This document shows, in pieces, positions 13,945-48,425 of a stretch of 64,000 nt of DNA. A program made the translations under genes and the position numbers. The notes beneath the pieces were generated by a model, which did not search any database, was not told the DNA's origin, and saw nothing but the letters and a program-made list of their open reading frames with translations. This DNA comes from Phycisphaerales bacterium (lineage in GTDB: Bacteria; Planctomycetota; Phycisphaerae; Phycisphaerales; UBA1924). The DNA lies in the NCBI GenBank assembly GCA_029260345.1, contig JAJDDK010000007.1, positions 126,226 through 190,225 on the forward strand, in the 5' to 3' direction. Each line of letters begins with the position of its first letter. Position 1 is the stretch's first letter.

Positions 13945-14018
13945 TGGGCGATACTGGACTTGAACCAGTGACCTCCTCGATGTCAACGAGGCGCGCTAGC
14001 CAACTGCGCCAATCGCCC
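13945..14018 (-). tRNA. tRNA-Val (anticodon GAC)
   Basis: Manual fold of the reverse complement: 7-bp acceptor GGGCGAU/AUCGCCC, D-stem GCGC/GCGC with GG in the loop, anticodon stem CCUCG/CGAGG with loop UUGACAU (anticodon GAC), T-stem ACUGG/CCAGU with loop UUCAAGU, discriminator A. CCA is not encoded. Confidence 0.85.
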
Positions 14019-27652: not shown

Positions 27653-28417
27653 TCAATCGTCGTCGCGCATTGAGATCGGGCGGCTGAGAATTTCGGTCGC
27701 GATGATGGCGCGCCGCCAGTCGTCGGGCGTGCGGGGCACATCGGGGCTGGCGCCGAACTTTTCGACCGGCGCGTCTTTCTGAACTTTGATCGTCCCAAGG
27801 ATGGGGCGTTCCGGAGCGGCGGCCTTTTGAGCTTTCGGGCGCGGCCGGGCGGCTTCCTTCTTGGCTTGCTCGGCGCGGCGACGCTCAATGTCGGCGCGCT
27901 GGTGTGCGGCGCGGCTCTGCTGTTCGCGCTGCATTTGAATATGGCGCTGGCGCGCAGCTTGCTGCGCGGGCGTCGGCGCCGGCGCCTGGGACGCTTGTGT
28001 CGGTTGCCGCGTTGGAATAGGGATCGGCGCCTGGGATGCTTGTGTCGATTGCCGCGTTGGAATAGGGATCGGCGCCTGCGTAGCGCGTGGCGGAGGCGCT
28101 GGTCGCGTTGGCGGAGTTGGTTTCGCGGCGCCGCGATTCTTCAATTGCTGCATGCGCTGCTGCTGACGCTCGCGCAGGGCGCGCAACTGCGCCTGACGGC
28201 GGGCCTGCAAATCAGGATTCGCTTGTGTTTGCACGACCGGGCGATTGGGCGACTCGGAGTGCTGCGCCACGCCTTCGCCGGTGCGCAACGCATTCTGGCG
28301 GCGTCGTTCGCGCTCTTTACGGGCGCGCGACACTTCCGACTGCTCCTGCGCTTTGCGGAACACCGCTTGAAGCACAGTCACGCCGAGAATGATCCAGAAA
28401 ATCCAACTGGGTCTCAT
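27653..28417 (-). CDS. Membrane-anchored Gln/Arg/Pro-rich protein with 15-aa tandem repeat (QAPIPIPTRQxTQAS)
   Basis: N-terminal TM 'MRPSWIFWIILGVTVLQAVF'. Coiled-coil-like Q/R-rich segment. Pro-rich repeats. Start ATG 28417. The Arg-rich N-terminal extension of the track ORF is probably not translated. Confidence 0.5.
   Translation of the reverse strand: MRPSWIFWIILGVTVLQAVFRKAQEQSEVSRARKERERRRQNALRTGEGVAQHSESPNRPVVQTQANPDLQARRQAQLRALRERQQQRMQQLKNRGAAKPTPPTRPAPPPRATQAPIPIPTRQSTQASQAPIPIPTRQPTQASQAPAPTPAQQAARQRHIQMQREQQSRAAHQRADIERRRAEQAKKEAARPRPKAQKAAAPERPILGTIKVQKDAPVEKFGASPDVPRTPDDWRRAIIATEILSRPISMRDDD
27981..28078. repeat. 45-bp direct tandem repeat (2.2 copies) inside the coding sequence
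   Basis: 'ggcgcctgggaYgcttgtgtcgRttgccgcgttggaatagggatc' x2 plus a partial third copy. Encodes the QAPIPIPTRQ(S/P)TQAS repeat on the minus strand. Confidence 0.8.
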
Positions 28418-28430
28418 GAGTAAGAGAAGT

Positions 28431-29222
28431 CTAGCCGTTCTCAGGCGATGGAGCCTCTGCGATGGCCAGCGCCCGCGTGGCGCCGCTCTCGAGACGCAGG
28501 AATGGCGCGCCAAAGACCGTTTCGAGTCGTTGCGGCGTGAGCGTCTCGGGCGTTGGTCCCTCGGCGCACACGCCACCTTGATCCATCACGATGGCGCGGT
28601 CGGACCAGTTCAGCGCCATGGTGAGATCGTGAAGGATGACGACGACAGCGACGCCTGCGCGGCTGATGGCTCGAAGCCGGCGCATGGTGAGGGCGGCGTG
28701 GCGAGGGTCCATCGCGGCGATGGGTTCATCGGCGAGGAGTGCGCGAGACGGTGCTGCATCATTGGGCGCCATCTGAAGCTGCGCGAAGGCGCGAGCCATC
28801 GCGACGCGCTGTTGCTGACCGACCGAGAGTTCATGGACGATGCGCGATCGAGAATCCGCTAATTCGAATTCCTCGATCGCGGCGGTGATGGCTTCCGGTG
28901 ACGCGGAACGCGCGTAGCGGCCGAACGCGATCACTTGCTCGACGGAAAACGGTCCGGCAATGGTTGGTCGCTGCGCGACAAGTGCGATGCGGGAGGCGCG
29001 GCGGCGCGGAGTAATTGATTTGATGTCATCTCCATCGAGCGACACATGGCCTGCCCACGGCGTGCGCACACCGGCAAGAAGCCTTAGCAGCGTGGATTTG
29101 CCCGCACCATTGGGGCCGATGATGGCGGTGACGGCGCCGATGGGCGCTTTGCAGTTCACGGCATCGACGACTGGTTGGCCGGTGCGATAGCCAAACGAAA
29201 GATTGTGCGTGCGCAACGTCAT
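28431..29222 (-). CDS. ABC transporter ATP-binding protein (FecE/HmuV/BtuD-like iron-siderophore/heme/B12 type)
   Basis: Walker A 'GPNGAGKST', signature 'LSVGQQQR', Walker B 'LLADEP'. ATG 29222 overlaps the permease stop (ATGA). Confidence 0.8.
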   Translation of the reverse strand: MTLRTHNLSFGYRTGQPVVDAVNCKAPIGAVTAIIGPNGAGKSTLLRLLAGVRTPWAGHVSLDGDDIKSITPRRRASRIALVAQRPTIAGPFSVEQVIAFGRYARSASPEAITAAIEEFELADSRSRIVHELSVGQQQRVAMARAFAQLQMAPNDAAPSRALLADEPIAAMDPRHAALTMRRLRAISRAGVAVVVILHDLTMALNWSDRAIVMDQGGVCAEGPTPETLTPQRLETVFGAPFLRLESGATRALAIAEAPSPENG

Positions 29223-30193
29223 GGCGTCACCCACCGGCTGCGCAGGAGCCAGATAAAGGTTGGGCCGCCAAGCAGCGCAGTCAGCACGCCGATGGGCATA
29301 CGACCGGCGCCGAGGTCGATCACGCGAATCAATGAATCAGCAAGAATGATGAGAGTGGCGCCGAGAAGCGCGGAACCCACCATGACGATGCGATTGGATG
29401 GTCCGGCGATCAGGCGAACCGCATGCGGACAGATCAGTCCGACAAATCCAATTGGTCCGGCGATGACCACACTTCCGGCGGTGAGCGCACCGGCCAGCGC
29501 CAGCAAGATCAATCGCAAGCGATGCAGCGGCACACCGACACTGAGCGCTTCGTCGTCATCGAGCGCCGCCGCATCCATCGCGGGACCGAGCCAGGCTCCG
29601 ATGAATACGCCGATGCACGTCACGGCAAGCACGGTGAGCACCAAGCCGCGCGGCGCATCATCGCGCAATGATCCGAACAACCAGCGCGTGGTCGCGACGA
29701 GGCCTTGTTCGGGCATGAGGTGTTGAAGCAGCACCGTCGCGGCGCCGCAGATGAGACTAACGACGACGCCGACGAGAATGAGTGTGACGGGTTCTATGAC
29801 GCCGCGTTTTTGCGCGAGGCCATAAACAACAAGCAGCGCTCCGATCGCGCCCAGCAACGAACCCGTCGCGGCGGTGGTTTGTCCGCCGATGACGCCGCCC
29901 GTCGCAAAGCCGAGAAACGTCGCGAGCGTCACGCCGAACCCGGCGCCGGCCGTCAGGCCAAGTACCGAGGGCGCCGCCAGCGGATTGCGCAGGAGTGACT
30001 GAAGCATGACCCCCGCCGCTGCGAGGGCGCCCCCCACTGCGCCGCCGGCAAGGATGCGTCCGAATCGAAGGCTCCACTCAAGCGCATCTCGGGGCGGATC
30101 AAGCCCTTCCGGCCCGACCGCGAAGCGCAGCGCGATCGCGCCGGACAAAGCGGCGAACAAGACGCCGAGGGCAATCAATGGACGTTTCGCCAT
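29219..30193 (-). CDS. ABC transporter permease, FecCD family
   Basis: Multiple TM helices. 'GPIGFVGLICPHAVRL' is characteristic of FecCD/BtuC. Start ATG 30193 ('MAKRPLIAL…'). Confidence 0.75.
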   Translation of the reverse strand: MAKRPLIALGVLFAALSGAIALRFAVGPEGLDPPRDALEWSLRFGRILAGGAVGGALAAAGVMLQSLLRNPLAAPSVLGLTAGAGFGVTLATFLGFATGGVIGGQTTAATGSLLGAIGALLVVYGLAQKRGVIEPVTLILVGVVVSLICGAATVLLQHLMPEQGLVATTRWLFGSLRDDAPRGLVLTVLAVTCIGVFIGAWLGPAMDAAALDDDEALSVGVPLHRLRLILLALAGALTAGSVVIAGPIGFVGLICPHAVRLIAGPSNRIVMVGSALLGATLIILADSLIRVIDLGAGRMPIGVLTALLGGPTFIWLLRSRWVTP

Positions 30194-30446
30194 TGATCCA
30201 AGCGTATCGCAAAGCCGGAGATCGCCCGCCGCAGAGCAGAATCGCTCAATTTTTCGATGGTCCGGGGCGAAGTCCCGATGACTTCCCGCCGATCTATGGC
30301 ACATCGCTCAGCCGGGCTCATGACGAGTCTTCGCTGTAGCAGCAATCACCTGACTTCATCGCGCCGCCGATGGCGCGAATGAGAAACGTTCGGCATGCGC
30401 CAATCGCTGTGATTCCGCGCGTGCGTTTGCACTCCTCGCCTGAGAA

Positions 30447-31112
30447 ATGGAGCTGGATCAGATGAACACTTTCACGCCCCCCTTCAATACACCTTTCAGC
30501 ACGCCGTTCGGCGGTTCGTTCAATCCTTTCGGCGGCGCGGGTTTCAATCCCGGCTTTAACGGTCAGGGTTTCGGCGGCGGCGGCTTCGGCGGCGGTGGCT
30601 GGAATAACTGGACCGGCGGCGCCACGCCGAACTTCTCCGGTGGCTGGAACACGCCGTGGGGCGGCTCGAACTGGAACGGCTTTGGCGGTTTCACGCCGCA
30701 GGGCAACTGGGGCGGCACGCCGTCCTTCGGTGGCTTCAACACGCCGTGGAGCGGTGGCTCGAACTGGAACGCGTTCAACACCGGCGGCTTCGGCGGCTGG
30801 AACACGCCCTTCGGCGGAACGAACGGTTTCTCGACGCCGTGGAATGGTTTCAACACGCCGTGGAACGGCTTTGGTGGAGGCACGTCGTTCGGTTTCGGCG
30901 GCTTGAATGGCTGGGGCAACGGCGCCACGCCGAATTTCTTCGGCGGCTGGAACACGCCGTTCTTTGGCTTCCCCACCACCAACCCGAACACCACGGAGAA
31001 CAACGGCAAGCCCGTGAATGCTCCGTTTGGTTTCACGCCCGGCGTCCCGTTCGGCTTCAACCCGTACACGGGTCAGCCGATCACCGGCGAGCACGTCGCC
31101 AAGGCTGCCTGA
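30447..31112 (+). CDS. Low-complexity Gly/Trp/Asn/Phe-rich repeat protein (GGWNTP[W/F]GG-type repeats), no signal peptide
   Basis: The + frame shows strong GC3 bias versus the overlapping antisense ORFs. ~20 degenerate repeats such as 'FNTPWSGGSNWN', 'GGWNTPFGG', 'FNTPWNGFGGG'. A strong terminator follows. Confidence 0.55.
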   Translation: MELDQMNTFTPPFNTPFSTPFGGSFNPFGGAGFNPGFNGQGFGGGGFGGGGWNNWTGGATPNFSGGWNTPWGGSNWNGFGGFTPQGNWGGTPSFGGFNTPWSGGSNWNAFNTGGFGGWNTPFGGTNGFSTPWNGFNTPWNGFGGGTSFGFGGLNGWGNGATPNFFGGWNTPFFGFPTTNPNTTENNGKPVNAPFGFTPGVPFGFNPYTGQPITGEHVAKAA

Positions 31113-31152
31113 TTCGCTGCACGGCTCTCCTCTTTTGTGATTGACACGAAAA

Positions 31153-31190
31153 CAGCGGTCCGGTGTTGAGTCCGGACCGCTGTTGTTGTG
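31153..31190. terminator. Bidirectional rho-independent terminator between convergent genes
   Basis: 11-bp stem 'cagcggtccgg/ccggaccgctg' with loop tgttgagt, followed by 'ttgttgtg'. Confidence 0.5.
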
Positions 31191-31219: not shown

Positions 31220-32782
31220 TCAGTTCTGGGCGGCCGCCTGTTCGCGGCTGACCATGCTGTCGAGCATGGTCCCGATGAGCGCCGTCGTTTCGGTCGACGA
31301 CTGGCCATTGCGCTCGCCGGTGACCATGACGCGCGGCGTAATCTCGATGCCGCGCTCGCCGATGACTTTGAGCATCTCCATGAGTGCGGCATTGCCGGCG
31401 CCGATCTGCTGGGCGATCACGCGGAACGCTTCAGCCTGAGCTTCGGCCTCAATGCGGATGGATTCGGCCTGCGCCTCGGCGCCGATGATGCGCTGCTGCT
31501 TCTGCTCGCCGGCGATCTGCACTTCGTACTGCGCAGTGGCGAGGCGGCGCTCTTCTTCGGCCTCCTGCTCAGTGCGCGTGAGCGCCTTTTTCTGCTCGGC
31601 GGCGCGCTGCTGCTCCTGGAAGGTGATTTGCTGCTGAATCGCGAGTTCGCGATCGGTTTGCGTTTTGAGCAACGTGCCGAGGGACTGCTCATCGCCAACG
31701 TCGCCGATGCGCACGCCGTTGATCGACAATCCAAAGCTGCTCACCTCGTGCACAAGGCGATCCTTTGACTGCGATTCTTGTTGAGATCGACTGTTCACAT
31801 AGTCCAGCGCTTTGAGACTTTCGGCGTTGTTGCGAAAAACACTTCGCACGCTGGAGTGAAGGCGATTCTTGAAGGAAATGCTCTCTGCGTCCTGGAAGTT
31901 CGCCACGATGAGCGGCGCATGCTCCGGACGAATCTCGTATTCGACACGCACGTCAACGGGGAAGGTGAATCCGTCAGAAGAGCGCACATTGATCTCGCGC
32001 TCTTCACCTTCGGCGCTTCCTTTGGTGTATTGAATCGTGCGTTCGCGCGTGGAAACCACGGTCACTTCGTATGCCTTGGGGTTGAGGTAATACTTGCCTT
32101 CGCCAAGCGGGTCATTCCAGATGCCGCGCGTTCCGCGAGGAACAAGTCCTTCACCTGAGCGCTGCTCGCGCGTCGGTGCGCGACCCACGTTGGATTTCAC
32201 AACACCAACTTCGGCCTTCGCAATATTCGTGACGGGATGCTTCTCGACGCGATACAAGCGTGTATTCAAACGATGCTTGCCAGGCGTGAGCACGGTCGTC
32301 TGTGGACCTTTGAATCCACTGCCCTGCGTCAGAAAATACTCCGCATCGAGCATGCGCTTGACGTGTTCATCCGACCACTCGGGCGCATAGACCTGGCTGT
32401 CGGGGAGCGGCTGACCATCCGTAGTCGTGATGATGCCGACTTCGTCCTGATCAACCTCGATGATCGACTCAACCTGCACGTCATAGATCACCGGCCAGAG
32501 CCACGGATGCCATCCGGGCGGCAACACCCGCGCCTGTGGACCTTTCTCTCCGTCCGTCGCAATGATCTGACCTGCAGGCAGGCTGTTTCCAACGTTCTTG
32601 ATGATGATGCCAACCTGATTCTCACCGACGTACCGAAATGACGCCATAAAAAACGCCAGCAGCACGACGACGACGGCGCCGCCGGCGGCGACCGGGCGCA
32701 ACGGGCGCGCCAGTTTGGGGATCGTCGTGAGAATCCCGATCGCAATGACAAATCCAAGCAGAATGACAGCAATTGTCCACAT
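31220..32782 (-). CDS. SPFH/band-7 domain protein, flotillin-like (YqiK-like)
   Basis: AAGGAG SD 8 nt before ATG 32782. N-terminal TM. SPFH core. Long E/A/Q-rich coiled coil 'EAEAQAEAFRVIAQQ'. Confidence 0.75.
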   Translation of the reverse strand: MWTIAVILLGFVIAIGILTTIPKLARPLRPVAAGGAVVVVLLAFFMASFRYVGENQVGIIIKNVGNSLPAGQIIATDGEKGPQARVLPPGWHPWLWPVIYDVQVESIIEVDQDEVGIITTTDGQPLPDSQVYAPEWSDEHVKRMLDAEYFLTQGSGFKGPQTTVLTPGKHRLNTRLYRVEKHPVTNIAKAEVGVVKSNVGRAPTREQRSGEGLVPRGTRGIWNDPLGEGKYYLNPKAYEVTVVSTRERTIQYTKGSAEGEEREINVRSSDGFTFPVDVRVEYEIRPEHAPLIVANFQDAESISFKNRLHSSVRSVFRNNAESLKALDYVNSRSQQESQSKDRLVHEVSSFGLSINGVRIGDVGDEQSLGTLLKTQTDRELAIQQQITFQEQQRAAEQKKALTRTEQEAEEERRLATAQYEVQIAGEQKQQRIIGAEAQAESIRIEAEAQAEAFRVIAQQIGAGNAALMEMLKVIGERGIEITPRVMVTGERNGQSSTETTALIGTMLDSMVSREQAAAQN

Positions 32783-32964
32783 GGGTCCGCTCCTTTCAGC
32801 GTTTAATGCCCCAGCGCCAAGCCCATGGGCGACGCCACCTGTCAACGTTTTTCGTCACCCATCATCGTTGATTTCGCGATCGCATGCTGCATGTCCTTTT
32901 CAGGCGCGCAGGGGACATCTCACACGCTTGGCGTGGCCGTCGCAGCGCGATGCAAGGGATGTGG

Positions 32965-34230
32965 TCAGGTCCAGTTGCTCAGGAGAGCCGCGAGATCAGC
33001 GCCGTTGATCACATCATCACCGCTGAGGTCTTCTGGAATATCCGCGCCCCACAACGAAAGCAGTTGGGCGAGGTCGGCGCCATTGACCATCCCGTCGCCG
33101 TTCAAATCACCAACGATCGCAGCGTCACAAAGCTCCCATCGGCGCAGCGGCGTTGTGCTGGAGCCGCCGGGCGTCGTTGCATTCGCGCCGACGAGCAGTG
33201 CGTTGTCGTACGGCGCCGTCGCTCGCGCCACTGACGTCAACCCATCGCCAAGCGCGGACCACGCATCGCCGTCAAAGATCGCAATGCGGTTGGCCGGCTG
33301 ACCGCCAATGGTGGTGAATTCGCCACCGACCACCAGTTGAGCGCCTTGCGCCGAGTCGATCGTGCTGATCGTGTGCACCGGCCCATTGGCGCCTCCGGCA
33401 AAAGTGGTCCATGTGGTTCCGTTCCAACGCGCAAGATGCACGGCGGCCGCGGCGCCGGACATGGTGAAGTCGCCACCAGCGATCAGATCGCCTTCGTATT
33501 CCGCCAGCGCTCGCACAATTCCATTCAACCCGGCGCCAACGGCCGACCATGCGGCGCCATTCCACTTCACGATGTTCGCCGAAGGTTGCCCGCCGGCGCC
33601 GAGAAACGATCCGCCCACAAAGATCGCCTCACCGGCGCCATCGTTGTGTGGTTGCAATGCAACACCGGTCTTGGCGCCGCCCTGCAGACCCGTCGCCAGC
33701 GCAGTCCATGTCGCGCCATTCCACTGTGCGATCCCTGCGGCGCCGGCGCCGCCAGCTGTCAGGAATGTTCCCGCCGCGTAGAGGCGTTCACTATTTCCAT
33801 CATGAAAAGAAGCCAGCGCGAGAACATCGCCACCGAGTCCGGCGCCGAGCGGCGCCCATTGAGCGCCATTCCATTGTGCGATGCGATTGAGCACCGCCGC
33901 GCCCGATGATGTGAATTTTCCGCCGGCGAAGATTGCCCCCTGATGTTCGGCCAACGCGAACGCGGCGTCGTCAAAGCCATCGCCGAGCGAAACCCAGGCG
34001 TCGCCATCGAACTTGGCGACAAACGGCGCTGGCTCGCCGGCCATGCTCGTGAAGGCGCCAGCGGCGTACGCGGCGTTCTCGGATTCATGAAAGACCAATG
34101 CGCGAACGGCGCCATCGGCGGTGGATTTGTCCTGAAGGGGATCCCACGCCGGTTCGCAAGGCTGGGCGACTGCCACAGCCGGGAAGAACAAAAGTAAGGC
34201 GGAGAACGCTCGTCGGGGAGTATTCAGCAT
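32965..34230 (-). CDS. Secreted beta-propeller-type repeat protein ('WNGxxW' repeats) with C-terminal dockerin-like domain
   Basis: Signal peptide 'MLNTPRRAFSALLLFFPAVAVA'. ~7 repeats 'IAQWNGAQWAPLGAGLGG'. Ends 'DLNGDGMVNGADLAQLLSLWG…DDVINGADLAALLSNWT'. Alternative start ATG 34260. Confidence 0.65.
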   Translation of the reverse strand: MLNTPRRAFSALLLFFPAVAVAQPCEPAWDPLQDKSTADGAVRALVFHESENAAYAAGAFTSMAGEPAPFVAKFDGDAWVSLGDGFDDAAFALAEHQGAIFAGGKFTSSGAAVLNRIAQWNGAQWAPLGAGLGGDVLALASFHDGNSERLYAAGTFLTAGGAGAAGIAQWNGATWTALATGLQGGAKTGVALQPHNDGAGEAIFVGGSFLGAGGQPSANIVKWNGAAWSAVGAGLNGIVRALAEYEGDLIAGGDFTMSGAAAAVHLARWNGTTWTTFAGGANGPVHTISTIDSAQGAQLVVGGEFTTIGGQPANRIAIFDGDAWSALGDGLTSVARATAPYDNALLVGANATTPGGSSTTPLRRWELCDAAIVGDLNGDGMVNGADLAQLLSLWGADIPEDLSGDDVINGADLAALLSNWT

Positions 34231-34477
34231 GGCTGGTCCTCTGATCTCGGAGGAGGTCATGGGAAATGGTCGAGCCAGCGATATTACAGGCGGGGTGTTT
34301 CAGAGCAATGGTCTTGGGGAAACGCCGGGTATTACCCAGTTTCACTCAATGCGTCAGCCCGACCCGGACACGCTCAATTGGGCATTTTTCTGGCTCTTTG
34401 GGTAAGAAACGGAATAGAGTGAAGGTGGAGCTGTCGCGGGTGCGTACAGCCGGGAACTCATCGTGGGGACGATGCAT

Positions 34478-36283
34478 ATGAAGATTGGCGCACGAGGCGT
34501 TGCGACAGTGTTCGCCGCCGCAGGACTTGGTGCGATCGCGCTGGCCGGTGATCCCGAGCATCGAACCATCGATGGCTCCGGAAACAACATAAATCATCCG
34601 ACGATTGGCAGTGCGCACTCGAATCTGGGGCGCGCTGCGGCGCCGGAATACGGTGACGGCATTTCGTCGCTTGGCGGTGTGAATCGACCGAGCCCACGAA
34701 CCATCAGCAACAACGTCGCAACACAGGACACCATGCTTCCGTCGGGTGTATTCATTCCCGATCCGCGCGGATTGACGGATTACGTCTGGGCATGGGGGCA
34801 ATTCCTTGCCCACGACACTAACCTTTCGCCGGATGACACCGCTGGCAGCGCGTTTATCCAAATTCCCATTGGCGATCCGTGGTTTGACCCCGATGGCCTC
34901 GGCCTCTCGGTGATGCCATTCCGCCGCTCGAACTTTGACACCTCCACTGGCACAGGCGAACGCAATCCGCGTGAACAGATCAATGTGCTTTCCTCATGGA
35001 TTGACGCATCGACGGTGTACGGATCCGAACCGGATCGTGCCGCTTGGGTTCGCACGTTTACCGATGGGAAGCTGAAGACGGAAGTGCTTTCGTCAGGCGT
35101 GTACCCGCCGCTGAACGACGGCTCACAGGTGATGACGTTTTCCGGCAACGGCCTCGGTTTTCACGTGGCGGGTGATGATCGCGCCAACGAAACACTGACG
35201 CTCTTGTCGATGCACACGCTCTTTGTGCGAGAGCATAATCGTCTCGCGGATGAAATTGCGCTGGCGAATCCGGACTGGACGGACGAGCAGATTTTCCAGC
35301 GCGCCCGGCGCATCGTCGGCGCTGAAGTGCAGGCGGTTACATACCATCAATTTCTGCCCACATTGCTGGGCAAGGGCGCCATTCCCCCTTACAGCGGCTA
35401 CGACGACACCATCGATCCAACCATTCTGAATGAGTTTTCCACCGCGGCGTTCCGTGTTGGCCACACCATGGTGAGCACGGACGTCTTGCGACTTGATGAA
35501 CTGGGCCAGCCAATTCCCGAAGGGAATCTGCACATCTTTGAGTCGTTCTTCAAACCGGAACGACTGACCGATGAGGGCGGCATTGAGCCGATCCTGCGCG
35601 GGCTTGCCGCGTCTCAGCAGCAGCAGATTGATTCGCGCATTGTCGATGACTTGCGCAATTTTCTGTTGAATTCTCCTGGCGCCGGTGAGCCTGCGGCCCT
35701 TGATCTGGCGTCGGTGAATATTCAGCGCGGGCGCGATCACGGACTCGCGGACTACAACACCGTGCGGCAGGCGTTCGGACTTCCGGCGCGGCTCACCGTC
35801 AGTGAGATTTCTTCGGATTCGCAGATTCGTGCCGGGCTTGAGGCGTCATACCCCGATGTGAACGACATCGACCTGTGGGTCGGTTTGCTCGCGGAAGATC
35901 ACTACCCCGGATCCAGCGTGGGCGAAACCCTTCGCGCGATCTGGATTGATCAATTCACGCGACTGCGCGATGGCGACCGGTTCTGGTTCCAGAATGATCC
36001 TGAACTCGCGGATTTGCTCCCGTGGCTGGAGAGCCTCACGCTTCGCGACGTGATCATGGCGAACACCCCGATTGAAGTCGACGAGCTTCAAGAAAATGTT
36101 TTTCAAATTCCATGTCCGCCCGATCTCGACGGAAACGGCGCTATTAATGGAGTAGATCTTGCCGCTCTGCTGGCCAATTGGGGCTCGCAGGAATCCGGTC
36201 AGTCGGCTGATTTGACTGACGACGGCATCGTCGACGGGCAAGACCTTGCGGCACTGCTGGCGGGTTGGGGATCGTGCTATTGA
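34478..36283 (+). CDS. Animal-type heme peroxidase (peroxidase-cyclooxygenase superfamily) with C-terminal dockerin-like domain
   Basis: 'IDGSGNN…P.IGSA…L.R', 'WGQFLAHD', 'LSMHTLFVREHNRLADEIA', 'NIQRGRDHGL'. Signal peptide. Ends 'DLDGNGAINGVDLAALLANWG…DGIVDGQDLAALLAGWGSCY'. Start ATG 34478 sits 7 nt after a GGGGAC SD. The track ORF begins at GTG 34463. Confidence 0.8.
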   Translation: MKIGARGVATVFAAAGLGAIALAGDPEHRTIDGSGNNINHPTIGSAHSNLGRAAAPEYGDGISSLGGVNRPSPRTISNNVATQDTMLPSGVFIPDPRGLTDYVWAWGQFLAHDTNLSPDDTAGSAFIQIPIGDPWFDPDGLGLSVMPFRRSNFDTSTGTGERNPREQINVLSSWIDASTVYGSEPDRAAWVRTFTDGKLKTEVLSSGVYPPLNDGSQVMTFSGNGLGFHVAGDDRANETLTLLSMHTLFVREHNRLADEIALANPDWTDEQIFQRARRIVGAEVQAVTYHQFLPTLLGKGAIPPYSGYDDTIDPTILNEFSTAAFRVGHTMVSTDVLRLDELGQPIPEGNLHIFESFFKPERLTDEGGIEPILRGLAASQQQQIDSRIVDDLRNFLLNSPGAGEPAALDLASVNIQRGRDHGLADYNTVRQAFGLPARLTVSEISSDSQIRAGLEASYPDVNDIDLWVGLLAEDHYPGSSVGETLRAIWIDQFTRLRDGDRFWFQNDPELADLLPWLESLTLRDVIMANTPIEVDELQENVFQIPCPPDLDGNGAINGVDLAALLANWGSQESGQSADLTDDGIVDGQDLAALLAGWGSCY

Positions 36284-36456
36284 ATGGCACAGAGCGAAAT
36301 GTGACGTCCGAGAAACACGGGGAGACAACTCGATTTCACTGCGGCATAGCGGAATTGTCTTGTTCAATTTCGTGTGAGCGGGTACTTTTTTAGGCGGAGC
36401 GTGCTGTAGTGCGCGTTTCGGGAACAATTCATCTGACCTCGTGGGGACGAGAAAAC

Positions 36457-38265
36457 ATGGCTAATTCGAGAGCATTCACGCCCAAGCGCGCCGCGATGGC
36501 CGCACCTCTTGCGGTTGCGCTGTGCGCCGTCGTGGGAATGTCCGCATCGGCGGACGACCGTTCGATCGACGGTGTGGGCAACAACGTGGCAAACCCGACC
36601 TGGGGCGCCGCCGACATTCATCTGGTCCGTATGTCGTTTGCCGACTACACGGATGGCATTTCGACGCTTGCCGGCGCCTTGCGGGAAAACCCGCGCGTCA
36701 TCAGCAACGCCGTCGTGCACCAGGACACTTCCAACGGCATGATCATTCCTGATCCGCGCGGCCTGACGGACTACGTCTGGGCATGGGGTCAGTTTGTTGA
36801 TCATGACCTTGACGAAACACCGACGGACGGTCCCGGCACCGCATTCATTCAAGTCCCCACGGGTGATCCGTGGTACGACCCCGAGGCGGATGGCGGCGGC
36901 CTGCTTCCGTTCCGCCGCTCGCGCATCGATTTTTCCACCGGCACGAACGTGAACAATCCGCGCGAGCAGGAGAATGCCATCACCGCGTTCCTCGATGGGT
37001 CTGCGGTGTACGGCGCTGATGAAACACGCGCCGACTGGCTGCGCACGCATTCCGGCGGCCAGCTGAAGATGTTTGCTGATGTCACCAATGGCATGATGAT
37101 GCCGTACAACGACGGAAGCATCCCGAACGCCGGTGGCAATGACGTCACACTGTTTGTGGGCGGCGACGTTCGCGCAAACGAAACGTCCTCACTTTCGTGC
37201 ATGCACACGCTTTGGGTGCGCGAGCACAATCGTCTCGCCGATGAAATCGCTGCGGCGAACCCGACGTGGACGGACGAAGAAATCTACCAGCGGGCCCGCA
37301 AGATCGTTGGCGCCCTGCTCCAGAAGATCACCTACGACGAATTCCTTCCTGCTCTGCTCGGTGAAGGCGCGCTCGCGCCGTACTCCGGGTACGACGACAG
37401 CGTCAATGCCAGCATCGCGACGGAGTTTTCGACGGCCGCGTATCGCGTCGGTCACACCATGCTTTCACCGATCGTCCTCCGCCTCGATGAATTCGGCGAT
37501 CCGATCGGCTCCGGCAACTTGTCGCTTCGCGATTCGTTCTTTGATCCTGACAAGATCATGCTTGAGGGCGGCATGGAGCCCATCTTCCGCGGCCTTGCCG
37601 CCGGTCAGATGCAGAAGGTTGACGGGTTCGTCAACGACGATGTTCGCATCTTCCTGTTCAACGAAATCGGCTCAACGCCTCCGGCGATGGACCTCGTGGC
37701 GTTGAACATCCAGCGCGGCCGCGACCACGGTCTGCCGGACTACAACAGCATCCGTGTTGCCTATGGCCTGGCGCCCGTCGTCAACTATTCCGACATCACG
37801 TCGGATGCGACGTTGCAGGCAGCCATCGCCTCGGTCTACCCGGACATCAACGACATGGACGCTTGGATCCCGATGATCGCCGAAGACCTCGTCCCCGGCT
37901 CCAGCCTCGGCGAAACCATCCGCACGATCCTGATCGACCAGTTCACGCGCATCCGTGACGGAGACCGTTTCTGGTACGAGAACGACGCCGACCTTTCAGG
38001 CCTGATGTCGTGGATCGATTCGCAGAAGCTCTCCGATGTGATCATCCGAAACACGACGATCAACGAAGGCGAGATTCATGAGAATCTGTTCTTCGTGGCA
38101 TGCCCCGGCGACATCGACGGCAACCTGACCGTCAATGGCTCGGACCTCGCTGCAATGCTTGCGGCGTGGAACACCAGCAGCCCCGCGGCGGACCTCAACG
38201 GCGACGGCGTCGTGAACGGGTCTGACCTTGCTGCCATGCTCGCGGCATGGGGCAGCTGCATCTGA
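36457..38265 (+). CDS. Animal-type heme peroxidase, tandem paralog, with C-terminal dockerin-like domain
   Basis: Collinear with 34478..36283 ('IDGVGNN', 'WGQFVDHD', 'SCMHTLWVREHNRLADEIA', 'NIQRGRDHGL'). Ends 'DIDGNLTVNGSDLAAMLAAWN…DLNGDGVVNGSDLAAMLAAWGSCI'. The same 'tcgtggggacga' 12-mer lies upstream of the start. Confidence 0.8.
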   Translation: MANSRAFTPKRAAMAAPLAVALCAVVGMSASADDRSIDGVGNNVANPTWGAADIHLVRMSFADYTDGISTLAGALRENPRVISNAVVHQDTSNGMIIPDPRGLTDYVWAWGQFVDHDLDETPTDGPGTAFIQVPTGDPWYDPEADGGGLLPFRRSRIDFSTGTNVNNPREQENAITAFLDGSAVYGADETRADWLRTHSGGQLKMFADVTNGMMMPYNDGSIPNAGGNDVTLFVGGDVRANETSSLSCMHTLWVREHNRLADEIAAANPTWTDEEIYQRARKIVGALLQKITYDEFLPALLGEGALAPYSGYDDSVNASIATEFSTAAYRVGHTMLSPIVLRLDEFGDPIGSGNLSLRDSFFDPDKIMLEGGMEPIFRGLAAGQMQKVDGFVNDDVRIFLFNEIGSTPPAMDLVALNIQRGRDHGLPDYNSIRVAYGLAPVVNYSDITSDATLQAAIASVYPDINDMDAWIPMIAEDLVPGSSLGETIRTILIDQFTRIRDGDRFWYENDADLSGLMSWIDSQKLSDVIIRNTTINEGEIHENLFFVACPGDIDGNLTVNGSDLAAMLAAWNTSSPAADLNGDGVVNGSDLAAMLAAWGSCI

Positions 38266-40998: not shown

Positions 40999-42114
40999 TT
41001 ATCGCCGGCGAATCACGATGACGGATTGGTCATCGTCCTGCGCGCCATGCGCCCGCGCGGCGCCCAGCAGCGACTGAAGAATCTCCCCCACCGGTTCGCC
41101 CCGTTGGCGCCGCAGTACTTCCACCAGCGGTGATTCGCCGAGCATCGCGCCGTCGGCGCCGCGCGTCTCCGTCAGACCATCCGTGTAGATCACGAGCAAA
41201 TCCTGCGGCGCCAGCGTCATTTCTCGCGTCGAGAATGTTTCGTCGGCAACCACACCAAGCGGAAGCGCTTCATTCTCAACGCGATTAACTTCGCCCGTCG
41301 CCGCGACGACATGCAGAATCGGATGATGCCCCGCGAGCGCGCACACGGCTCGACCATCGTTTGAAAGTCGAATGCACGCAAACGTCGCGAACATGCCCGG
41401 TTCGGCAAGGTCGCACACGACGCGGTTCAAGTCAGGCACCACGTCTTCGAGCGTGTCGTCATGCAGCAGTCGCGTCCGCAGCGAACTCTTCAGCATCGCC
41501 ATGAGGACGCCAGCTCGCACCCCATGCCCGGACACATCGGCGAGGTAGGCATCGAGGCCGCGTTCGTTGGTGAGGATGTCGATGAGATCCCCGCCCATCT
41601 CTGAGCTGGCGTCCGAACGAGCCGCCGCTTCTGCGAACTCCGTCTCGATCATCAGGGGCGGCACAAGACTGCGATGAATGCCTTGCGCCAGATTCATCTC
41701 CGTCCGCAACCGCAACTGACGCGAGCCTTCCTTGGCGATAAAGCTCGCCATGAGGACATACCCCGCAACCAGTGTGAGAATCGCAAAGAGCGCCAGCGGC
41801 GTGGAGCGCGAATCGATGACCCAGGGCGCGTTCAGCGACGGCCCCAGAACCACCGGCCCGAAGATCTGCAATGCGATCACGATCGGCAGCAGCCAGATCC
41901 GCCACATGAACGAGAGCGCCCACCCGATGGCGATCCCGCCGCTGAAAAGTGACCACACCAGCACCGTCCACCACGGTTCGTGCTTTATTTCGACGCGCCC
42001 CAGCGTAAAGAGCGGTCCGAGCGTGGCAAACGTGAAGAAGATCGCGGTGAGCAGCAGCGCCCGCCCTCGGACGCTCAATCCACCGAAGTATTCATCGCGA
42101 GCCGTTTGTGCCAT
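40999..42114 (-). CDS. PP2C-family Ser/Thr phosphatase (SpoIIE/RsbU-like) with N-terminal multi-TM sensor region
   Basis: 'DVSGHGVRAGVLMAMLKSSLR', 'LLVIYTDGLTE'. About 5 TM helices at the N-terminus. Confidence 0.75.
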   Translation of the reverse strand: MAQTARDEYFGGLSVRGRALLLTAIFFTFATLGPLFTLGRVEIKHEPWWTVLVWSLFSGGIAIGWALSFMWRIWLLPIVIALQIFGPVVLGPSLNAPWVIDSRSTPLALFAILTLVAGYVLMASFIAKEGSRQLRLRTEMNLAQGIHRSLVPPLMIETEFAEAAARSDASSEMGGDLIDILTNERGLDAYLADVSGHGVRAGVLMAMLKSSLRTRLLHDDTLEDVVPDLNRVVCDLAEPGMFATFACIRLSNDGRAVCALAGHHPILHVVAATGEVNRVENEALPLGVVADETFSTREMTLAPQDLLVIYTDGLTETRGADGAMLGESPLVEVLRRQRGEPVGEILQSLLGAARAHGAQDDDQSVIVIRRR

Positions 42115-43306: not shown

Positions 43307-44401
43307 TCAGGCGTTCGTGTCGCGCCCGAGCAATTGCTGAAGGCGGTTGTAACTTTCTTTATCGCGACCGATCAATTGATCCACTTGCATATCCGCGTGG
43401 TAACTCGATCGCACCATCGGGCCGGATTCAACCACCGCAAAGCCGCGGGCGAGGCCCTGGTCGCGGTAACGGTCGAAGACTTCCGGCTCGACGAAACGGT
43501 CAATCGGTAAGTGGTTCGGCGTGGGCTGGAGGTATTGCCCGATTGTGAGGATGTCCGTTTGCGCCCGAGTCTGAAGATCGTCCATCAGTTCGAGCACTTC
43601 ATCATCGCGCTCGCCGATGCCGACCATGATGCCGGTCTTCGTCACCATTCCCGCGTCTTTGCAACGCTTCAACAACTCGACCGAACGGTCATATTTCGCT
43701 GAAGGGCGCACCGCGGGATACATGCGCGGCACCGTCTCCACGTTGTGATTGAGAATCTCCGGCCGCGCGTCGATTACATCCTGAAGCGCCTCCCAATTTC
43801 CTTCGAAGTCCGGGATCAGCACTTCGATGGAGAGATTGTTGTCGCAGGCTTCGCGCGTGCGCAGGACGGTCTCGGCCCAGATCGCGGCGCCGCCGTCTTT
43901 GAGTTCATCACGATTCACACTGGTGATCACGATGTGGCGCAGTCCAGCGCCTTCGACCATGAGCCTTACGGATTCCGCGACGCGTTTGGGTTCATCAAGA
44001 TCAAGCACGGGCGGCTTGCCGGTTTTCACGTTGCAGAAGCCGCAGGCGCGGGTGCAGGTGTCGCCGAGGATCATGATCGTCGCGACGCCGCGGGCCCAGC
44101 ATTCGCCCATGTTGGGGCAGCCGGCCTCTTCGCAGACGGTGTGGAGCTTGTGCTCACCGAGAATGGCGCGGAGGTTGTGGTAGCCGGGGCCGCCGGGGAG
44201 CTGGGCGCGGAGCCACTTGGGCTTGCGCTTGGCCTGCGGCATTTGTTTGGCCCCGCCGTCGTTGTTCAGCACCATGCCGGTCAGGCTGAAGGCGGGCTTG
44301 TCGATGCGGCGCATCGGGTCACCGCCGGCAGGCCTCGGATGGCGCTGAATCCCCTTTGTGCGGGGCGTGGCGGGGGTCGAAGTGGGCGGCGGGGTGGACA
44401 T
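43307..44401 (-). CDS. lipA: Lipoyl synthase
   Basis: 'CEEAGCPNMGEC' and 'CTRACGFC' radical-SAM Cys clusters. 'SVNRDEL'. Start ATG 44401 ('MSTPPP…'). The upstream 370 codons of the track ORF are not LipA. Confidence 0.85.
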   Translation of the reverse strand: MSTPPPTSTPATPRTKGIQRHPRPAGGDPMRRIDKPAFSLTGMVLNNDGGAKQMPQAKRKPKWLRAQLPGGPGYHNLRAILGEHKLHTVCEEAGCPNMGECWARGVATIMILGDTCTRACGFCNVKTGKPPVLDLDEPKRVAESVRLMVEGAGLRHIVITSVNRDELKDGGAAIWAETVLRTREACDNNLSIEVLIPDFEGNWEALQDVIDARPEILNHNVETVPRMYPAVRPSAKYDRSVELLKRCKDAGMVTKTGIMVGIGERDDEVLELMDDLQTRAQTDILTIGQYLQPTPNHLPIDRFVEPEVFDRYRDQGLARGFAVVESGPMVRSSYHADMQVDQLIGRDKESYNRLQQLLGRDTNA

Positions 44402-44797
44402 GGGACCGCAAGTGTAGTCGGTCAGGAATGCCCCGAAGCGGAGCTTTCGCGCGAACTTCCCGGCCCTCAGACCGATAGTACCGGTCGGAGATGAGGGTGA
44501 AACTGGGCAAACAGGGTCAACCCGTGGCGTGTGTCGGTCGATCACACAGTCGGGTGATTCGTGCGCAAGGGCGTCCCGAGCCACCTCAGAGTGCATTCGT
44601 TGACAGCGCGGGGGCCGGTGATACCGTGACCGATTCGCCCGCGGGAACCTCGGAGTCGGCACGCGCGGGGAGCCGACCCGAACACCGAGCGAGTCCCCGA
44701 GCAGGGCGAACTGAAGAATTGCCCGACCAAGGAGTGAGCCGTGGCTGGATGTAATGTCGATCGCGCAAGCGCTGGCCGACCCACACGCACACGCTGG

Positions 44798-48386: not shown

Positions 48387-48425
48387 CTCCCCTGATGACC
48401 GAACGACCCCGAGGATGCTGAGGCC

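What the first reader, a model, noticed from the sequence alone, without database searches (positions are those of the whole stretch)
30447..31112. Intrinsically disordered Gly/Trp/Asn/Phe repeat protein (FG/GW-like) lacking a signal peptide
The 221-aa product consists almost entirely of degenerate repeats such as 'GGWNTPWGG', 'FNTPWSGGSNWNAF' and 'WNTPFGGTNGF'. It has essentially no charged residues until the last 20 aa ('GQPITGEHVAKAA'). GC3 bias supports this frame over the two long antisense ORFs. The composition resembles FG-nucleoporin cohesive domains and eukaryotic GW/WG 'Ago-hook' or condensate-forming low-complexity regions, which is unusual for a bacterial cytoplasmic protein. It could form hydrogels or condensates, or be a structural matrix component. 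It lies immediately downstream of the ABC importer and has its own strong terminator.
Basis: seen in the sequence. Interest (0 to 1): 0.6.

Follow-up and report, generated by a model that had tools for sequence, protein, structure and literature searches.

The report
Charge-free aromatic repeat protein, Phycisphaerae
This is a real, conserved small gene in a group of planctomycete bacteria that encodes an almost uncharged, probably unstructured protein studded with evenly spaced Pro-Phe/Pro-Trp motifs; its make-up recalls the sticky FG domains of nuclear pores, but it belongs to no known family and its function is untested.

Summary
Window 30447-31112(+) is an open frame whose product is 27% Gly, 15% Phe, 14% Asn, 12% Thr, 11% Pro and 6% Trp.

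It is a real gene, and the true start is most likely the second ATG at 30462 (216 aa).
- Six distinct orthologs keep the frame, an invariant GGAG-N9-ATG, the MN(T/P)F N-terminus, a conserved C-terminal module ending K-(A/V)-A, and a terminator hairpin. Four of them turned up only by synteny.
- Two independent gene callers chose this strand.
- Codon usage and dN/dS favour it.

The gene is transcribed divergently from a FecCD-type ABC importer operon, not downstream of it. That pairing survives a local rearrangement.

Across orthologs Gly falls from 27% to 7% and Trp from 8% to 1%. The features that persist are:
- about 14-22% evenly spaced aromatic residues;
- 10-14 (N/T/S)-P-(F/W) motifs;
- no charged residue in the first 75-80% of the chain (P about 7e-8 against neutral expectation in one pair).

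AlphaFold gives pLDDT 38. No Pfam, NCBIfam or PDB match exists.

Best reading: a cytoplasmic, disordered "sticker-and-spacer" protein that self-associates or offers many weak binding motifs. It resembles Nup98 FG domains in composition but fails the membership tests. The GW/Ago-hook reading is not supported. Function remains inferred.

The parts
30270..30293 (+). Bipartite promoter-like motif AAGTC-N15-CGAT, oriented towards the repeat-protein gene. It lies 169 nt upstream of that gene's ATG and 77 nt upstream of the divergent FecCD start.
   Evidence: These are the only invariant blocks in the intergenic alignment of the six orthologous loci. The motif occurs once in the 64-kb window and once, at the same relative place and orientation, in every target-bearing locus. 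It is absent from FecCD loci that lack the target. Its role as a promoter (geometry like an alternative or ECF-type sigma site) is inferred. No sigma-70-type site was found.
30355..30426 (+). 5' leader with two hairpins (about 30355-30383 and 30392-30426).
   Evidence: RNAalifold of window against L001 predicts 28 pairs, 3 of them with compensatory double changes. The fold of the single sequence is not exceptional (z = -1.2). The hairpins cannot be aligned in the more distant orthologs. No Rfam family matches. Status: weak, and restricted to this lineage.
30449..30452 (+). Shine-Dalgarno GGAG, 9 nt before the ATG at 30462.
   Evidence: GGAG-N9-ATGAA is invariant in all six orthologs.
30462..31112 (+). 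Coding sequence of the 216-aa repeat protein, stop codon included. The finding's start at 30447 is an in-frame upstream ATG that overlaps the SD and is not conserved.
   Evidence: The frame is open in all six orthologs, with GC3 of 0.83-0.97. dN/dS is 0.41 overall and 0.22 in the C-terminal 39 codons; alternative frames give >1.2 or contain stops. Codon log-likelihood is 0.416 per codon against 0.148 for the best antisense ORF. Gene callers chose this frame in two independent assemblies.
30462..30995 (+). Charge-free repeat region (residues 1-178). It opens with the conserved MN(T/P)F.TPF motif and continues with degenerate (N/T/S)-P-(F/W) plus Gly/Asn spacer repeats of about 7-8 residues.
   Evidence: There are no D/E/K/R residues here in any ortholog. 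None of 62 substitutions plus 25 indel residues between window and L001 is charged, although 24% of random non-synonymous changes would be (P about 7e-8). Aromatic residues number 46 in both proteins. They avoid adjacency and are more evenly spaced than in shuffles in five of six orthologs. Short DNA tandem repeats of period 15 and 21 are present.
30996..31109 (+). Conserved C-terminal module ENNGKPVNAPFGFTPGVPFGFNPYTGQPITGEHVAKAA. It holds all four charged residues and ends K-A-A.
   Evidence: This is the best-conserved block in the alignments. dN/dS is 0.22, with 9 synonymous against 8 non-synonymous codon changes. It is the only part with pLDDT above 50, modelled with short paired strands. 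All five complete orthologs end K-(A/V)-A.
31151..31190 (.). Intrinsic terminator: a 13-bp GC-rich hairpin followed by UUGUUGU on the + strand. It lies between the repeat gene and the convergent SPFH/Band_7 gene (31220-32845, minus strand), so it may act in both directions.
   Evidence: Fold z = -4.3, with 0 of 200 shuffles as stable. Two compensatory pairs separate window from L001. Equivalent hairpins with a U-rich tail follow the stop in L001, L009 and L011. L013 also has a GC-rich hairpin with a UUGUUCAUU tail, but the fold of that stretch is not exceptional (z = -0.4); there the next gene is co-directional.
27653..30193 (-). Divergently transcribed ABC importer operon: FecCD permease (29219-30193), ATPase (28431-29234) and a membrane-anchored Arg/Gln/Pro-rich protein (27653-28417). 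This is the conserved neighbour, not part of the gene itself.
   Evidence: Pfam matches FecCD (3e-70) and ABC_tran (7e-25). The head-to-head pairing with the repeat gene is kept in all six loci, including L013 and L018, where the other flank has been rearranged.

Best explanation
Window 30462-31112(+) is a genuine monocistronic gene, with a promoter-like motif, leader, SD, CDS and terminator. It is found in a clade of Phycisphaerales (Planctomycetota).

It encodes a 216-aa cytoplasmic protein with no stable fold. The first roughly 80% of the chain is charge-free. In it, aromatic residues (one every 4-5 positions, mostly as (N/T/S)-Pro-Phe/Trp) act as evenly spaced 'stickers' between Gly/Asn/Thr 'spacers'. 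A conserved 38-aa C-terminal module carries the only charges.

Shown here:
- The gene is coding and conserved.
- Selection preserves composition (no charge, a constant number and even spacing of aromatics, xPF/xPW motifs) rather than exact sequence.
- Both termini are conserved.
- Codon bias is strong.
- The head-to-head linkage to a FecCD-type ABC importer operon is conserved.

Inferred:
- Water is a poor solvent for such a chain, so many weak aromatic/proline contacts make it self-associate into a condensate or gel-like phase at low concentration, and/or bind partners multivalently.
- The C-terminal module is the specific handle, for anchoring, for partner binding, or (because of the ssrA-like K-A-A end) for proteolytic turnover.
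- Strong codon bias points to high expression. An alternative-sigma-like promoter motif points to conditional expression.
For: Coding status:
- Six orthologs with the frame intact.
- Invariant GGAG-N9-ATG.
- dN/dS of 0.41 overall and 0.22 in the C-terminus, against >1.2 or stops in other frames.
- dN of 0.27, comparable to neighbouring genes at 0.09-0.33.
- Codon log-likelihood and synonymous preference at the top of the window's genes.
- Gene callers agree.
- Terminator hairpins after the stop in window, L001, L009 and L011, and a weaker one in L013.

Compositional selection:
- No charged residue among 87 changed positions, P about 7e-8.
- 46 aromatic residues in both close orthologs, 39 of them in shared columns.
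- Aromatic residues depleted at lags 1-2 (z about -3) and more evenly spaced than shuffles in 5 of 6 orthologs.
- 10-14 [NTS]P[FWYM] motifs in every ortholog, while Gly varies from 27% to 7% and Trp from 8% to 1%.

Disorder and poor solvation:
- AlphaFold2 pLDDT 38, pTM 0.15, no secondary structure in residues 1-188.
- Fraction of charged residues 0.02, net charge 0. Mean hydropathy 0.44-0.51 lies above the charge-hydropathy boundary of 0.41, the collapsed side (the boundary formula is from my own knowledge of Uversky 2000).
- No transmembrane or signal-like segment.

Analogy:
- Charge-depleted Nup98 FG domains with one FG per ~12 residues phase-separate at sub-micromolar concentration, and shorter spacers increase cohesion (PMC9918544).

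Linkage:
- The FecCD pairing is kept through a rearrangement.
- The AAGTC-N15-CGAT motif co-occurs with the gene.
Against: - There is no expression, proteomic or biophysical data.
- The low pLDDT comes from a 2-sequence alignment, which cannot tell disorder apart from an unrecognised fold.
- With an aromatic residue every 4-5 positions and no charge, the chain might form insoluble or ordered (amyloid-like, beta-rich) assemblies rather than a liquid phase.
- Pro at 11-18% and the conserved xPF/xPW triplets fit a linear-motif array that binds a folded partner as well as they fit homotypic cohesion.
- The promoter assignment and the degron idea are pattern-based only.
- The family is known from only six metagenome-derived sequences.
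Confidence: 0.45

Rival explanations
1. Short-linear-motif array. The 10-14 (N/T/S)-P-(F/W) triplets are docking sites for a folded partner, as NPF/DPF/DPW arrays of endocytic adaptors bind EH or appendage domains and as FG motifs bind transport receptors. Under this reading the protein works as a multivalent adaptor or scaffold rather than by self-association. The partner might be the neighbouring ABC importer or its membrane-anchored Arg-rich third subunit, through cation-pi contacts.
For: The xP(F/W) triplet is the one motif whose number stays constant while Gly, Trp and Asn contents drift. NPF itself occurs 3-5 times in the L013 and L018 orthologs. The head-to-head pairing with the FecCD operon is conserved through a rearrangement. 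The third operon gene encodes a transmembrane-anchored Arg/Gln-rich low-complexity protein.
Against: No partner has been identified. No EH-, appendage- or karyopherin-like gene was seen in the neighbourhood. The Arg-rich operon protein also occurs in FecCD loci that lack this gene. The motif spacing of 3-8 residues is tighter than is usual for independent docking sites (own knowledge). This reading does not exclude self-association.
Confidence: 0.2
2. Ordered assembly. The chain folds or polymerises into a regular structure that shallow alignments cannot reveal, such as a beta-solenoid or amyloid-like fibre with Asn ladders and stacked aromatics, or a polyproline-II/polyglycine-II bundle. It would then be an abundant structural material.
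For: The chain is rich in Asn, Gly and aromatic residues with a degenerate repeat of about 7-8 residues. Codon bias suggests abundance. AlphaFold had only two sequences to work with.
Against: Gly shows no period-3 pattern, which a PGII bundle requires. Pro at 11-18% is spread throughout and breaks beta strands. Repeat length, number and composition vary freely between orthologs, with many indels, which is unlike solenoid repeats. No strand or helix is predicted in residues 1-188. No PDB sequence match was found even at E = 10.
Confidence: 0.15
3. Exported material. The protein leaves the cell by a non-classical route and acts as an extracellular matrix, adhesive or cell-surface component, comparable to glycine-rich adhesives or the disordered domains of the anammox S-layer protein Brosi_A1236.
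For: Planctomycete extracellular disordered domains are known to phase-separate and to mediate adhesion (PMC7482068). Neighbouring genes encode secreted dockerin-bearing proteins and haem peroxidases that could in principle cross-link a matrix.
Against: There is no signal peptide, transmembrane segment, PEP-CTERM or other sorting motif; the N-terminus is MNTFTPPFN and hydropathy is low. The adjacent ABC system is an importer type (FecCD), not an exporter. The peroxidase genes are separate transcription units more than 3 kb away, and the protein has only one Tyr.
Confidence: 0.07
4. Not a protein-coding gene on this strand. The open frame would be a by-product of low-complexity GC-rich DNA, or the real gene would be one of the antisense ORFs (168 aa, Pro/Lys-rich, 30563-31069; or 258 aa, 30318-31094).
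For: Antisense frames stay open in most orthologs. The 168-aa antisense ORF has similar GC3 (0.86) and a dN/dS of 0.52.
Against: Conservation extends beyond both ends of the 168-aa antisense ORF, and that frame has stops inside the best-conserved C-terminal block. The antisense start codons and positions differ between orthologs. The 258-aa frame has GC3 of 0.49 and a codon score near zero. On the + strand, the SD-ATG, the stop position and the terminator tail are all conserved. Selection against charged residues is visible only in the + frame. Gene callers picked the + frame.
Confidence: 0.03

Closest known systems
Cohesive Nup98-type (GLFG) FG-repeat domains of nuclear pore complexes
   Same: Both are low-complexity, essentially uncharged and predicted to be disordered, with spacers rich in Gly, Asn, Thr, Ser and Pro. 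FG dipeptide density is about one per 11-14 residues, against one per ~12 in Nup98. The expected physics is the same: a poor-solvent chain with multivalent aromatic cohesion.
   Different: There is no sequence homology (no Pfam hit even at E = 10). Length is 148-221 aa against 500-700. There is no GLFG. Trp and Pro-aromatic motifs are prominent here, whereas Nup98 domains select against Trp. Total aromatic density is 2-3 times higher. There is no globular anchor domain. The protein is bacterial with no pore context. Gly and FG counts are not conserved within the family.
Prion-like low-complexity domains with evenly patterned aromatic stickers (hnRNPA1/FUS type; sticker-and-spacer model)
   Same: Both have uniformly spaced aromatic residues in a Gly/Asn/Ser/Thr-rich spacer, very low charge, and conservation of composition and aromatic number rather than of sequence. 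The comparison with the model rests on my own knowledge (Martin et al. 2020).
   Different: The stickers here are Phe/Trp preceded by Pro, not Tyr. There are no Arg partners and no RNA-binding domain. N+Q is only about 16% in the window protein. This is a stand-alone bacterial protein rather than a domain of a larger one.
GW182/TNRC6 and plant 'Ago-hook' GW/WG repeat regions
   Same: The window protein has 8 GW/WG dipeptides in a Gly/Asn-rich disordered context.
   Different: GW/WG counts fall to 0-2 in three orthologs, and Trp is freely replaced by Phe. No Argonaute/PIWI gene was seen near the locus. Ago-hook regions are typically Ser-rich and carry charge (own knowledge).
NPF / DPF / DPW motif arrays of eukaryotic endocytic adaptors (Eps15, epsin)
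   Same: Both have many copies of an x-Pro-Phe/Trp triplet in an unstructured chain. Literal NPF occurs up to 5 times in some orthologs.
   Different: The preceding residue here is mostly Thr, Asn or Ser, never Asp. The spacing is much tighter. No EH or appendage-type partner is known in these bacteria. No literature links NPF motifs to Planctomycetes.
Disordered repeat domains of the anammox planctomycete S-layer protein Brosi_A1236
   Same: It is a planctomycete protein region rich in Thr, Ser and Gly that is intrinsically disordered and shown to self-associate and phase-separate (PMC7482068).
   Different: Brosi_A1236 is a very large (170-200 kDa bands on SDS-PAGE) membrane-anchored extracellular glycoprotein with Ig-like folds. 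Its disordered part is not described as aromatic-rich. The protein studied here is small, has no export signal, and is wholly low-complexity.

Membership tests
Nup98-type cohesive FG domain | Extreme depletion of charged residues in a low-complexity chain | tested here: met
   There are no D/E/K/R residues in positions 1-178, and the fraction of charged residues is 0.02. The feature list is taken from PMC9918544.
Nup98-type cohesive FG domain | [quoted passage not shown] | tested here: met
   The window protein has 15 FG in 216 aa and L001 has 20 in 221 aa. The count falls to 6-9 in the L011, L013 and L018 orthologs.
Nup98-type cohesive FG domain | Prevalence of GLFG motifs | tested here: not met
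   No ortholog contains GLFG.
Nup98-type cohesive FG domain | Selection against Trp, Tyr, His, Cys, Val and Ile | tested here: not met
   Trp is 6% in the window protein and 8% in L009.
Nup98-type cohesive FG domain | Length of 500-700 residues, attached to a globular anchor domain in a nuclear pore | tested here: not met
   The proteins are 148-221 aa long with no folded domain, and they come from a bacterial genome.
Nup98-type cohesive FG domain | Sequence-profile match (Pfam Nucleoporin_FG families) | tested here: not met
   No Pfam family matched at E <= 10 for the window protein and L001, or at E <= 1 for the four other orthologs.
Nup98-type cohesive FG domain | Phase separation into a selective barrier; binding of transport receptors | not testable with these tools
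   This needs recombinant protein assays.
GW182 / Ago-hook GW repeat region | Multiple conserved GW/WG motifs whose Trp residues are essential | tested here: not met
   GW/WG counts across the orthologs are 8, 4, 5, 2, 1 and 0. Between window and L001 there are 7 W-W columns against 5 W/F swaps.
GW182 / Ago-hook GW repeat region | An Argonaute/PIWI partner encoded in the genome or locus | tested here: inconclusive
   No PIWI/Argonaute domain was found among the neighbours scanned. The whole genome was not available.
Prion-like (Q/N-rich) domain | Strong Q/N enrichment (typically above ~30%) with few charges and few prolines | tested here: not met
   N+Q is about 16% in the window protein, and Pro is 11-18% across the family. 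The L011 ortholog reaches 29% N+Q. The threshold comes from my own knowledge, and no PLAAC run was possible.
Aromatic sticker-and-spacer low-complexity domain (functional class, not a homology family) | Aromatic residues more evenly spaced than random, with their number conserved while the sequence drifts | tested here: met
   Clustering z runs from -1.6 to -3.2 in five of six orthologs. Lags 1-2 are depleted at z about -3. Both close orthologs have 46 aromatic residues.
Polyglycine-II / PPII helical bundle proteins (snow-flea antifreeze, phage gp38 adhesin type) | Gly at every third position over successive segments | tested here: not met
   Gly autocorrelation at lag 3 gives z = 0.0 for the window protein and 1.5 for L001. 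The signal is at lags 7-8 instead.
Secreted functional amyloid (curli CsgA / Fap type) | N-terminal Sec signal, and imperfect Q/N-G repeats of fixed length forming strand-turn-strand units | tested here: not met
   There is no hydrophobic N-terminal segment. Repeat length is variable with many indels. Pro is spread throughout. No strands are predicted.

The most novel reading that the evidence does not exclude
A clade of Phycisphaerae makes a stand-alone 'FG-like' cohesive protein. This is a bacterial invention, convergent with nucleoporin FG domains or endocytic xPF/xPW adaptor arrays, that forms a selective, charge-excluding condensed phase or a multivalent docking platform inside the cell. 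It may sit at the membrane next to the conserved ABC importer and its Arg-rich membrane-anchored subunit. It would be a rare case of a bacterial protein that is nothing but an aromatic sticker-and-spacer domain, and a minimal natural model for FG-phase physics in a phylum long discussed for eukaryote-like cell biology.
Probability: 0.12. Interest if true: 0.85.

Novelty: new variant of a known kind. Interest (0 to 1): 0.5.

Why it matters
If the inferred behaviour is real, this is a compact natural protein of 148-221 aa that is essentially charge-free. Evolution has visibly held three things constant in it: the number of aromatic residues, their even spacing, and the absence of charge. Everything else has drifted.

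That makes it a clean natural experiment for the sticker-and-spacer rules so far derived from eukaryotic FG nucleoporins and prion-like domains. It would also add to the few known bacterial condensate scaffolds one that has no folded domain at all.

The conserved head-to-head linkage to a FecCD-type importer gives a concrete place to look for function.

There is also a methodological point. Standard profile searches, and the protein collections behind them, missed four of the five orthologs. Families of this kind are therefore probably under-counted in bacteria.

Tried and rejected
1. Sequence searches gave almost nothing.
- phmmer-type searches of 5.8 billion clusters with the single protein and with a 4-sequence profile returned only P0001.
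- An exhaustive HMMER search of 1.84 billion representatives also returned only P0001.
- An exact look-up then showed that most orthologs are simply not in that collection. Apparent rarity is therefore not evidence of rarity.

2. Pattern scans found nothing.
- Peptide patterns against GTDB genomes and JGI metagenomes.
- A back-translated KPVNAPFGF pattern against metagenomes.

3. Exact look-up of the window protein's encoding contig failed for both start variants. The identical locus was reached instead through the AccC gene.

4. Pfam, NCBIfam and PDB sequence searches of the protein and its orthologs gave no hits.

5. Rfam found no family in the leader or the gene. There was only a sub-threshold terminator-like hit to CC0196.

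6. GC3 as a strand discriminator was rejected, because the 168-aa antisense frame shares third positions with the sense frame.

7. The sigma-70 promoter scan found no site.

8. The idea that the third operon gene is the missing periplasmic binding protein was rejected, because it shows no similarity to one.

9. The idea that the Arg-rich third gene is specific to target-bearing loci was rejected.

10. A polyglycine-II bundle was rejected, because Gly has no period-3 signal.

11. Literature searches for the sample accessions and for NPF motifs in Planctomycetes returned nothing. Searches for bacterial FG-like proteins returned no bacterial example.

Full report
**1. What is there**

Window 30447-31112(+) is an open frame of 221 codons. 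The window is 61% G+C. Two long antisense ORFs overlap the frame, one of 258 aa and one of 168 aa that is Pro/Lys-rich.

Pfam annotation of the neighbours gives this layout:
- On the minus strand lies a FecCD permease. Its ORF is 29219-30304, and the called start is 30193.
- It is followed by an ABC ATPase, a 254-aa protein with no Pfam hit, an M24 peptidase, AccB and AccC.
- On the other side, also on the minus strand, lies a convergent SPFH/Band_7 gene (31220-32845).

The gene is therefore head-to-head with the ABC importer operon, not downstream of it.

**2. Is it a gene, and on which strand?**

Orthologs:
- Sequence searches returned a single homolog, P0001. It is 221 aa, 54-67% identical, and comes from Logan contig L001.
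- P0001 begins at MNTFT, which corresponds to the second ATG of the window ORF. It sits in the same head-to-head arrangement with FecCD.
- A contig reached through the identical AccC gene (L008, Logan SRR15505512) is 100% identical to the window across the locus. Its gene caller called the 216-aa + strand ORF.
- Anchoring on FecCD homologs and reading their contigs uncovered four more orthologs that the profile searches had missed:
  - L009, 181 aa, FecCD 77% identical;
  - L011, 179/184 aa, from NCBI GCA_964392425.1, FecCD 74%;
  - L013, 148 aa, which is NCBI RMH27316.1 'hypothetical protein', FecCD 67%;
  - L018, partial at 146 aa, FecCD 68%.
- FecCD loci at 57-58% identity or less lack the gene, as do three GTDB Phycisphaerales loci at 45-55%.

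Evidence for the + frame:
- It is the only frame that is open full-length in all six orthologs while also carrying a high GC3 (0.83-0.97). One antisense frame is open in five of six, but its third positions are GC-poor (0.35-0.48).
- GGAG-N9-ATGAA is invariant in all six. The upstream ATG at 30447 overlaps the SD and is absent in L013 and L018. The start is therefore 30462.
- Between window and L001, dN/dS is 0.41 in this frame. It is 0.52 in the antisense frame that shares third positions, and above 1.2 in the rest.
- In the best-conserved C-terminal 39 codons, dN/dS is 0.22, with 9 synonymous and 8 non-synonymous codon changes. The competing antisense frame contains stops there.
- Codon log-likelihood is 0.416 per codon, against 0.148 and 0.036 for the antisense ORFs. 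Synonymous-codon preference (0.467) is as high as for the best genes in the window.
- dN (0.27) is in the range of the neighbouring genes (0.09-0.33). dS is lower than theirs (0.67 against about 1.0), which is consistent with strong codon bias.
- A 13-bp terminator hairpin with a UUGUUGU tail follows the stop (z = -4.3). It shows compensatory changes in L001.
- Equivalents follow the stop in L009 and L011. L013 has a weaker one (z = -0.4), although its downstream gene is co-directional.

I conclude that this is a real, monocistronic protein-coding gene.

**3. What selection preserves**

Composition drifts strongly across the six orthologs. Gly goes from 27% to 7%, Trp from 8% to 1%, Asn from 12% to 26% and Pro from 11% to 18%. 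Four things stay constant.

(a) No charged residue occurs in the first 75-80% of the chain in any ortholog. The 3-4 charges present in each complete ortholog all lie in the C-terminal tail. Between window and L001, none of 62 substitutions plus 25 indel residues in this region is D, E, K or R, although 23-24% of random non-synonymous single-base changes would create one. P is about 7e-8 for the substitutions alone.

(b) Aromatic content stays at 14-22%. Window and L001 each have exactly 46 aromatic residues, with 39 shared aromatic columns and free W/F exchange.

(c) Aromatic residues are evenly spaced. They are depleted at lags 1-2 (z about -3). They are also more uniform than shuffles in five of six orthologs, with z from -1.6 to -3.2.

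(d) Each protein has 10-14 (N/T/S)-P-(F/W/Y/M) triplets.

Both ends are conserved as sequence. The N-terminus reads MN(T/P)F.(T)PF. The C-terminal module reads ENNG(K)..N.PFG..PGFPFGFNP(F/Y).....K(A/V)A. The repeats are only loosely periodic, at about 7-8 residues. Small DNA tandem repeats and many in-frame indels are present.

**4. Structure and localisation**

- AlphaFold2 on the 2-sequence alignment gives mean pLDDT 38 and pTM 0.15, with no secondary structure in residues 1-188. Only the C-terminal module reaches pLDDT 55-57, and it is modelled with short paired strands.
- No PDB sequence matches even at E = 10.
- No Pfam or NCBIfam family matches any ortholog.
- The fraction of charged residues is 0.02 and net charge is 0.
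- Mean hydropathy (0.44-0.51) lies above the charge-hydropathy boundary (0.41). The chain is therefore expected to be collapsed or poorly solvated rather than an expanded coil (the formula is from my own knowledge).
- No 19-residue segment approaches transmembrane hydropathy, and the N-terminus has no signal-peptide character. By default the protein is cytoplasmic.

**5. Regulatory anatomy**

- The only intergenic blocks invariant across the six loci are the SD and a bipartite motif, AAGTC-N15-CGAT, at window 30270-30293.
- The motif occurs once in the 64-kb window. It occurs once, in the same orientation, in every target-bearing locus, and in no FecCD locus that lacks the gene.
- Its geometry resembles a -35/-10 pair for an alternative (ECF-type) sigma factor. 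That reading is an inference. No sigma-70-like site is present.
- Window and L001 share two leader hairpins with three compensatory pairs. These cannot be aligned in the remoter orthologs and are not thermodynamically unusual.

**6. Mechanism**

The best-supported reading has four elements. The protein is stand-alone. It is intrinsically disordered. It is a charge-free 'sticker-and-spacer' chain with Pro-Phe/Pro-Trp stickers. And it self-associates, or binds partners multivalently.

The physics is documented for Nup98 FG domains. They are charge-depleted, carry one FG per ~12 residues, and phase-separate at sub-micromolar concentration. Cohesion rises steeply as the spacers shorten (PMC9918544). 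In this protein the spacers are even shorter.

The conserved C-terminal module is the natural candidate for a specific interaction. Alternatively, because all complete orthologs end K-(A/V)-A (an ssrA-like Ala-Ala end, from my own knowledge), it could mediate regulated proteolysis.

The rivals are as follows:
- a linear-motif array that binds a folded partner, which fits the constancy of xP(F/W) and the literal NPF repeats in L013 and L018;
- an ordered beta-rich or PPII assembly, which is disfavoured by the lack of Gly period 3, the ubiquitous Pro and the variable repeats;
- non-classical export, for which there is no signal and beside which sits an importer-type ABC system;
- a spurious or antisense gene, which section 2 rejects.

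**7. Comparison with known systems**

Against the Nup98 criteria listed in PMC9918544, the protein meets charge depletion and FG density. It fails on length, GLFG prevalence, avoidance of Trp, the anchor domain and the profile match. It works plausibly like an FG domain but is not a member of that family.

The GW/Ago-hook analogy fails because GW/WG motifs and Trp itself are not conserved.

The closest functional class is the aromatic-patterned prion-like low-complexity domain.

Within Planctomycetes, the disordered self-associating domains of the anammox S-layer protein Brosi_A1236 are a known precedent. They are extracellular, Thr/Ser/Gly-rich, and part of a very large folded protein (PMC7482068). 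The literature searches found no description of a bacterial protein of this type.

**8. Verdict**

Novelty: this is an unannotated, lineage-restricted family, known so far from six Phycisphaerales sequences. It represents a new bacterial variant of a known physical class of proteins.

Interest is moderate at 0.5. The compositional selection and the conserved genomic linkage are striking and directly testable, but the function is unknown.

Caveat on rarity: the large protein searches missed four of the five orthologs, and most of those sequences are absent from the collection. The family may be wider than it appears.

Noticed in passing
window 27653-28417 (-): The third gene of the FecCD ABC operon encodes a 254-aa protein with three parts: an N-terminal transmembrane helix, a long Arg/Gln/Glu- and Pro/Thr/Gln-rich low-complexity stretch, and a conserved C-terminal motif (PRT.DDWRRAIIA.EIL..P.S.RE). 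It has no Pfam hit and is not a periplasmic binding protein, and the operon has no binding-protein gene. Weak homologs follow the ATPase even in FecCD loci that lack the repeat gene.
   Followed up: partly
window 30270-30293 (+): The bipartite motif AAGTC-N15-CGAT is invariant in all six orthologous loci and unique in the 64-kb window. It may be an alternative-sigma promoter for the repeat gene. Its distance to the FecCD start is also nearly constant (74-78 nt) in four loci, so a role in the divergent operon is not excluded.
   Followed up: partly
window 30355-30426 (+): Two leader hairpins are shared with L001, with three compensatory base-pair changes and a conserved GCUGU loop. There is no Rfam match, and they are not conserved in the more distant orthologs.
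   Followed up: partly
window 34463-36283 (+) and 36409-38265 (+): Two tandem genes encode animal-type haem peroxidases, each with a C-terminal dockerin domain. They lie next to a Rax2-like beta-propeller/dockerin protein (32965-34260, minus strand). An An_peroxidase gene also lies near the FecCD locus in L013.
   Followed up: no
window 46501-52988 (+): An exosortase (EpsH) gene is followed by a DUF3485 gene and a 1520-aa TPR-repeat protein, which is a PEP-CTERM/exosortase-type locus. A SpoIIE-type phosphatase (40999-42114, minus strand) and a 737-aa radical-SAM/lipoyl-synthase-like protein with a long N-terminal extension (43307-45520, minus strand) lie nearby.
   Followed up: no
window 30318-31094 (-) and 30563-31069 (-): Long antisense 'shadow' ORFs stay open in most orthologs purely because of the restricted codon vocabulary of the sense strand. 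This is a trap for gene callers in high-GC low-complexity genes.
   Followed up: yes
L009 3237-3782, L011 3174-3728, L013 3416-3862, L018 2-439: Synteny-defined orthologs were invisible to the phmmer/hmmsearch tools, and most of them are absent from the protein collection by exact look-up. 'No homologs' for low-complexity proteins in these resources should not be read as rarity.
   Followed up: yes
window 13945-14018 (-): A single tRNA gene is the only Rfam gathering-threshold hit in the window.
   Followed up: no
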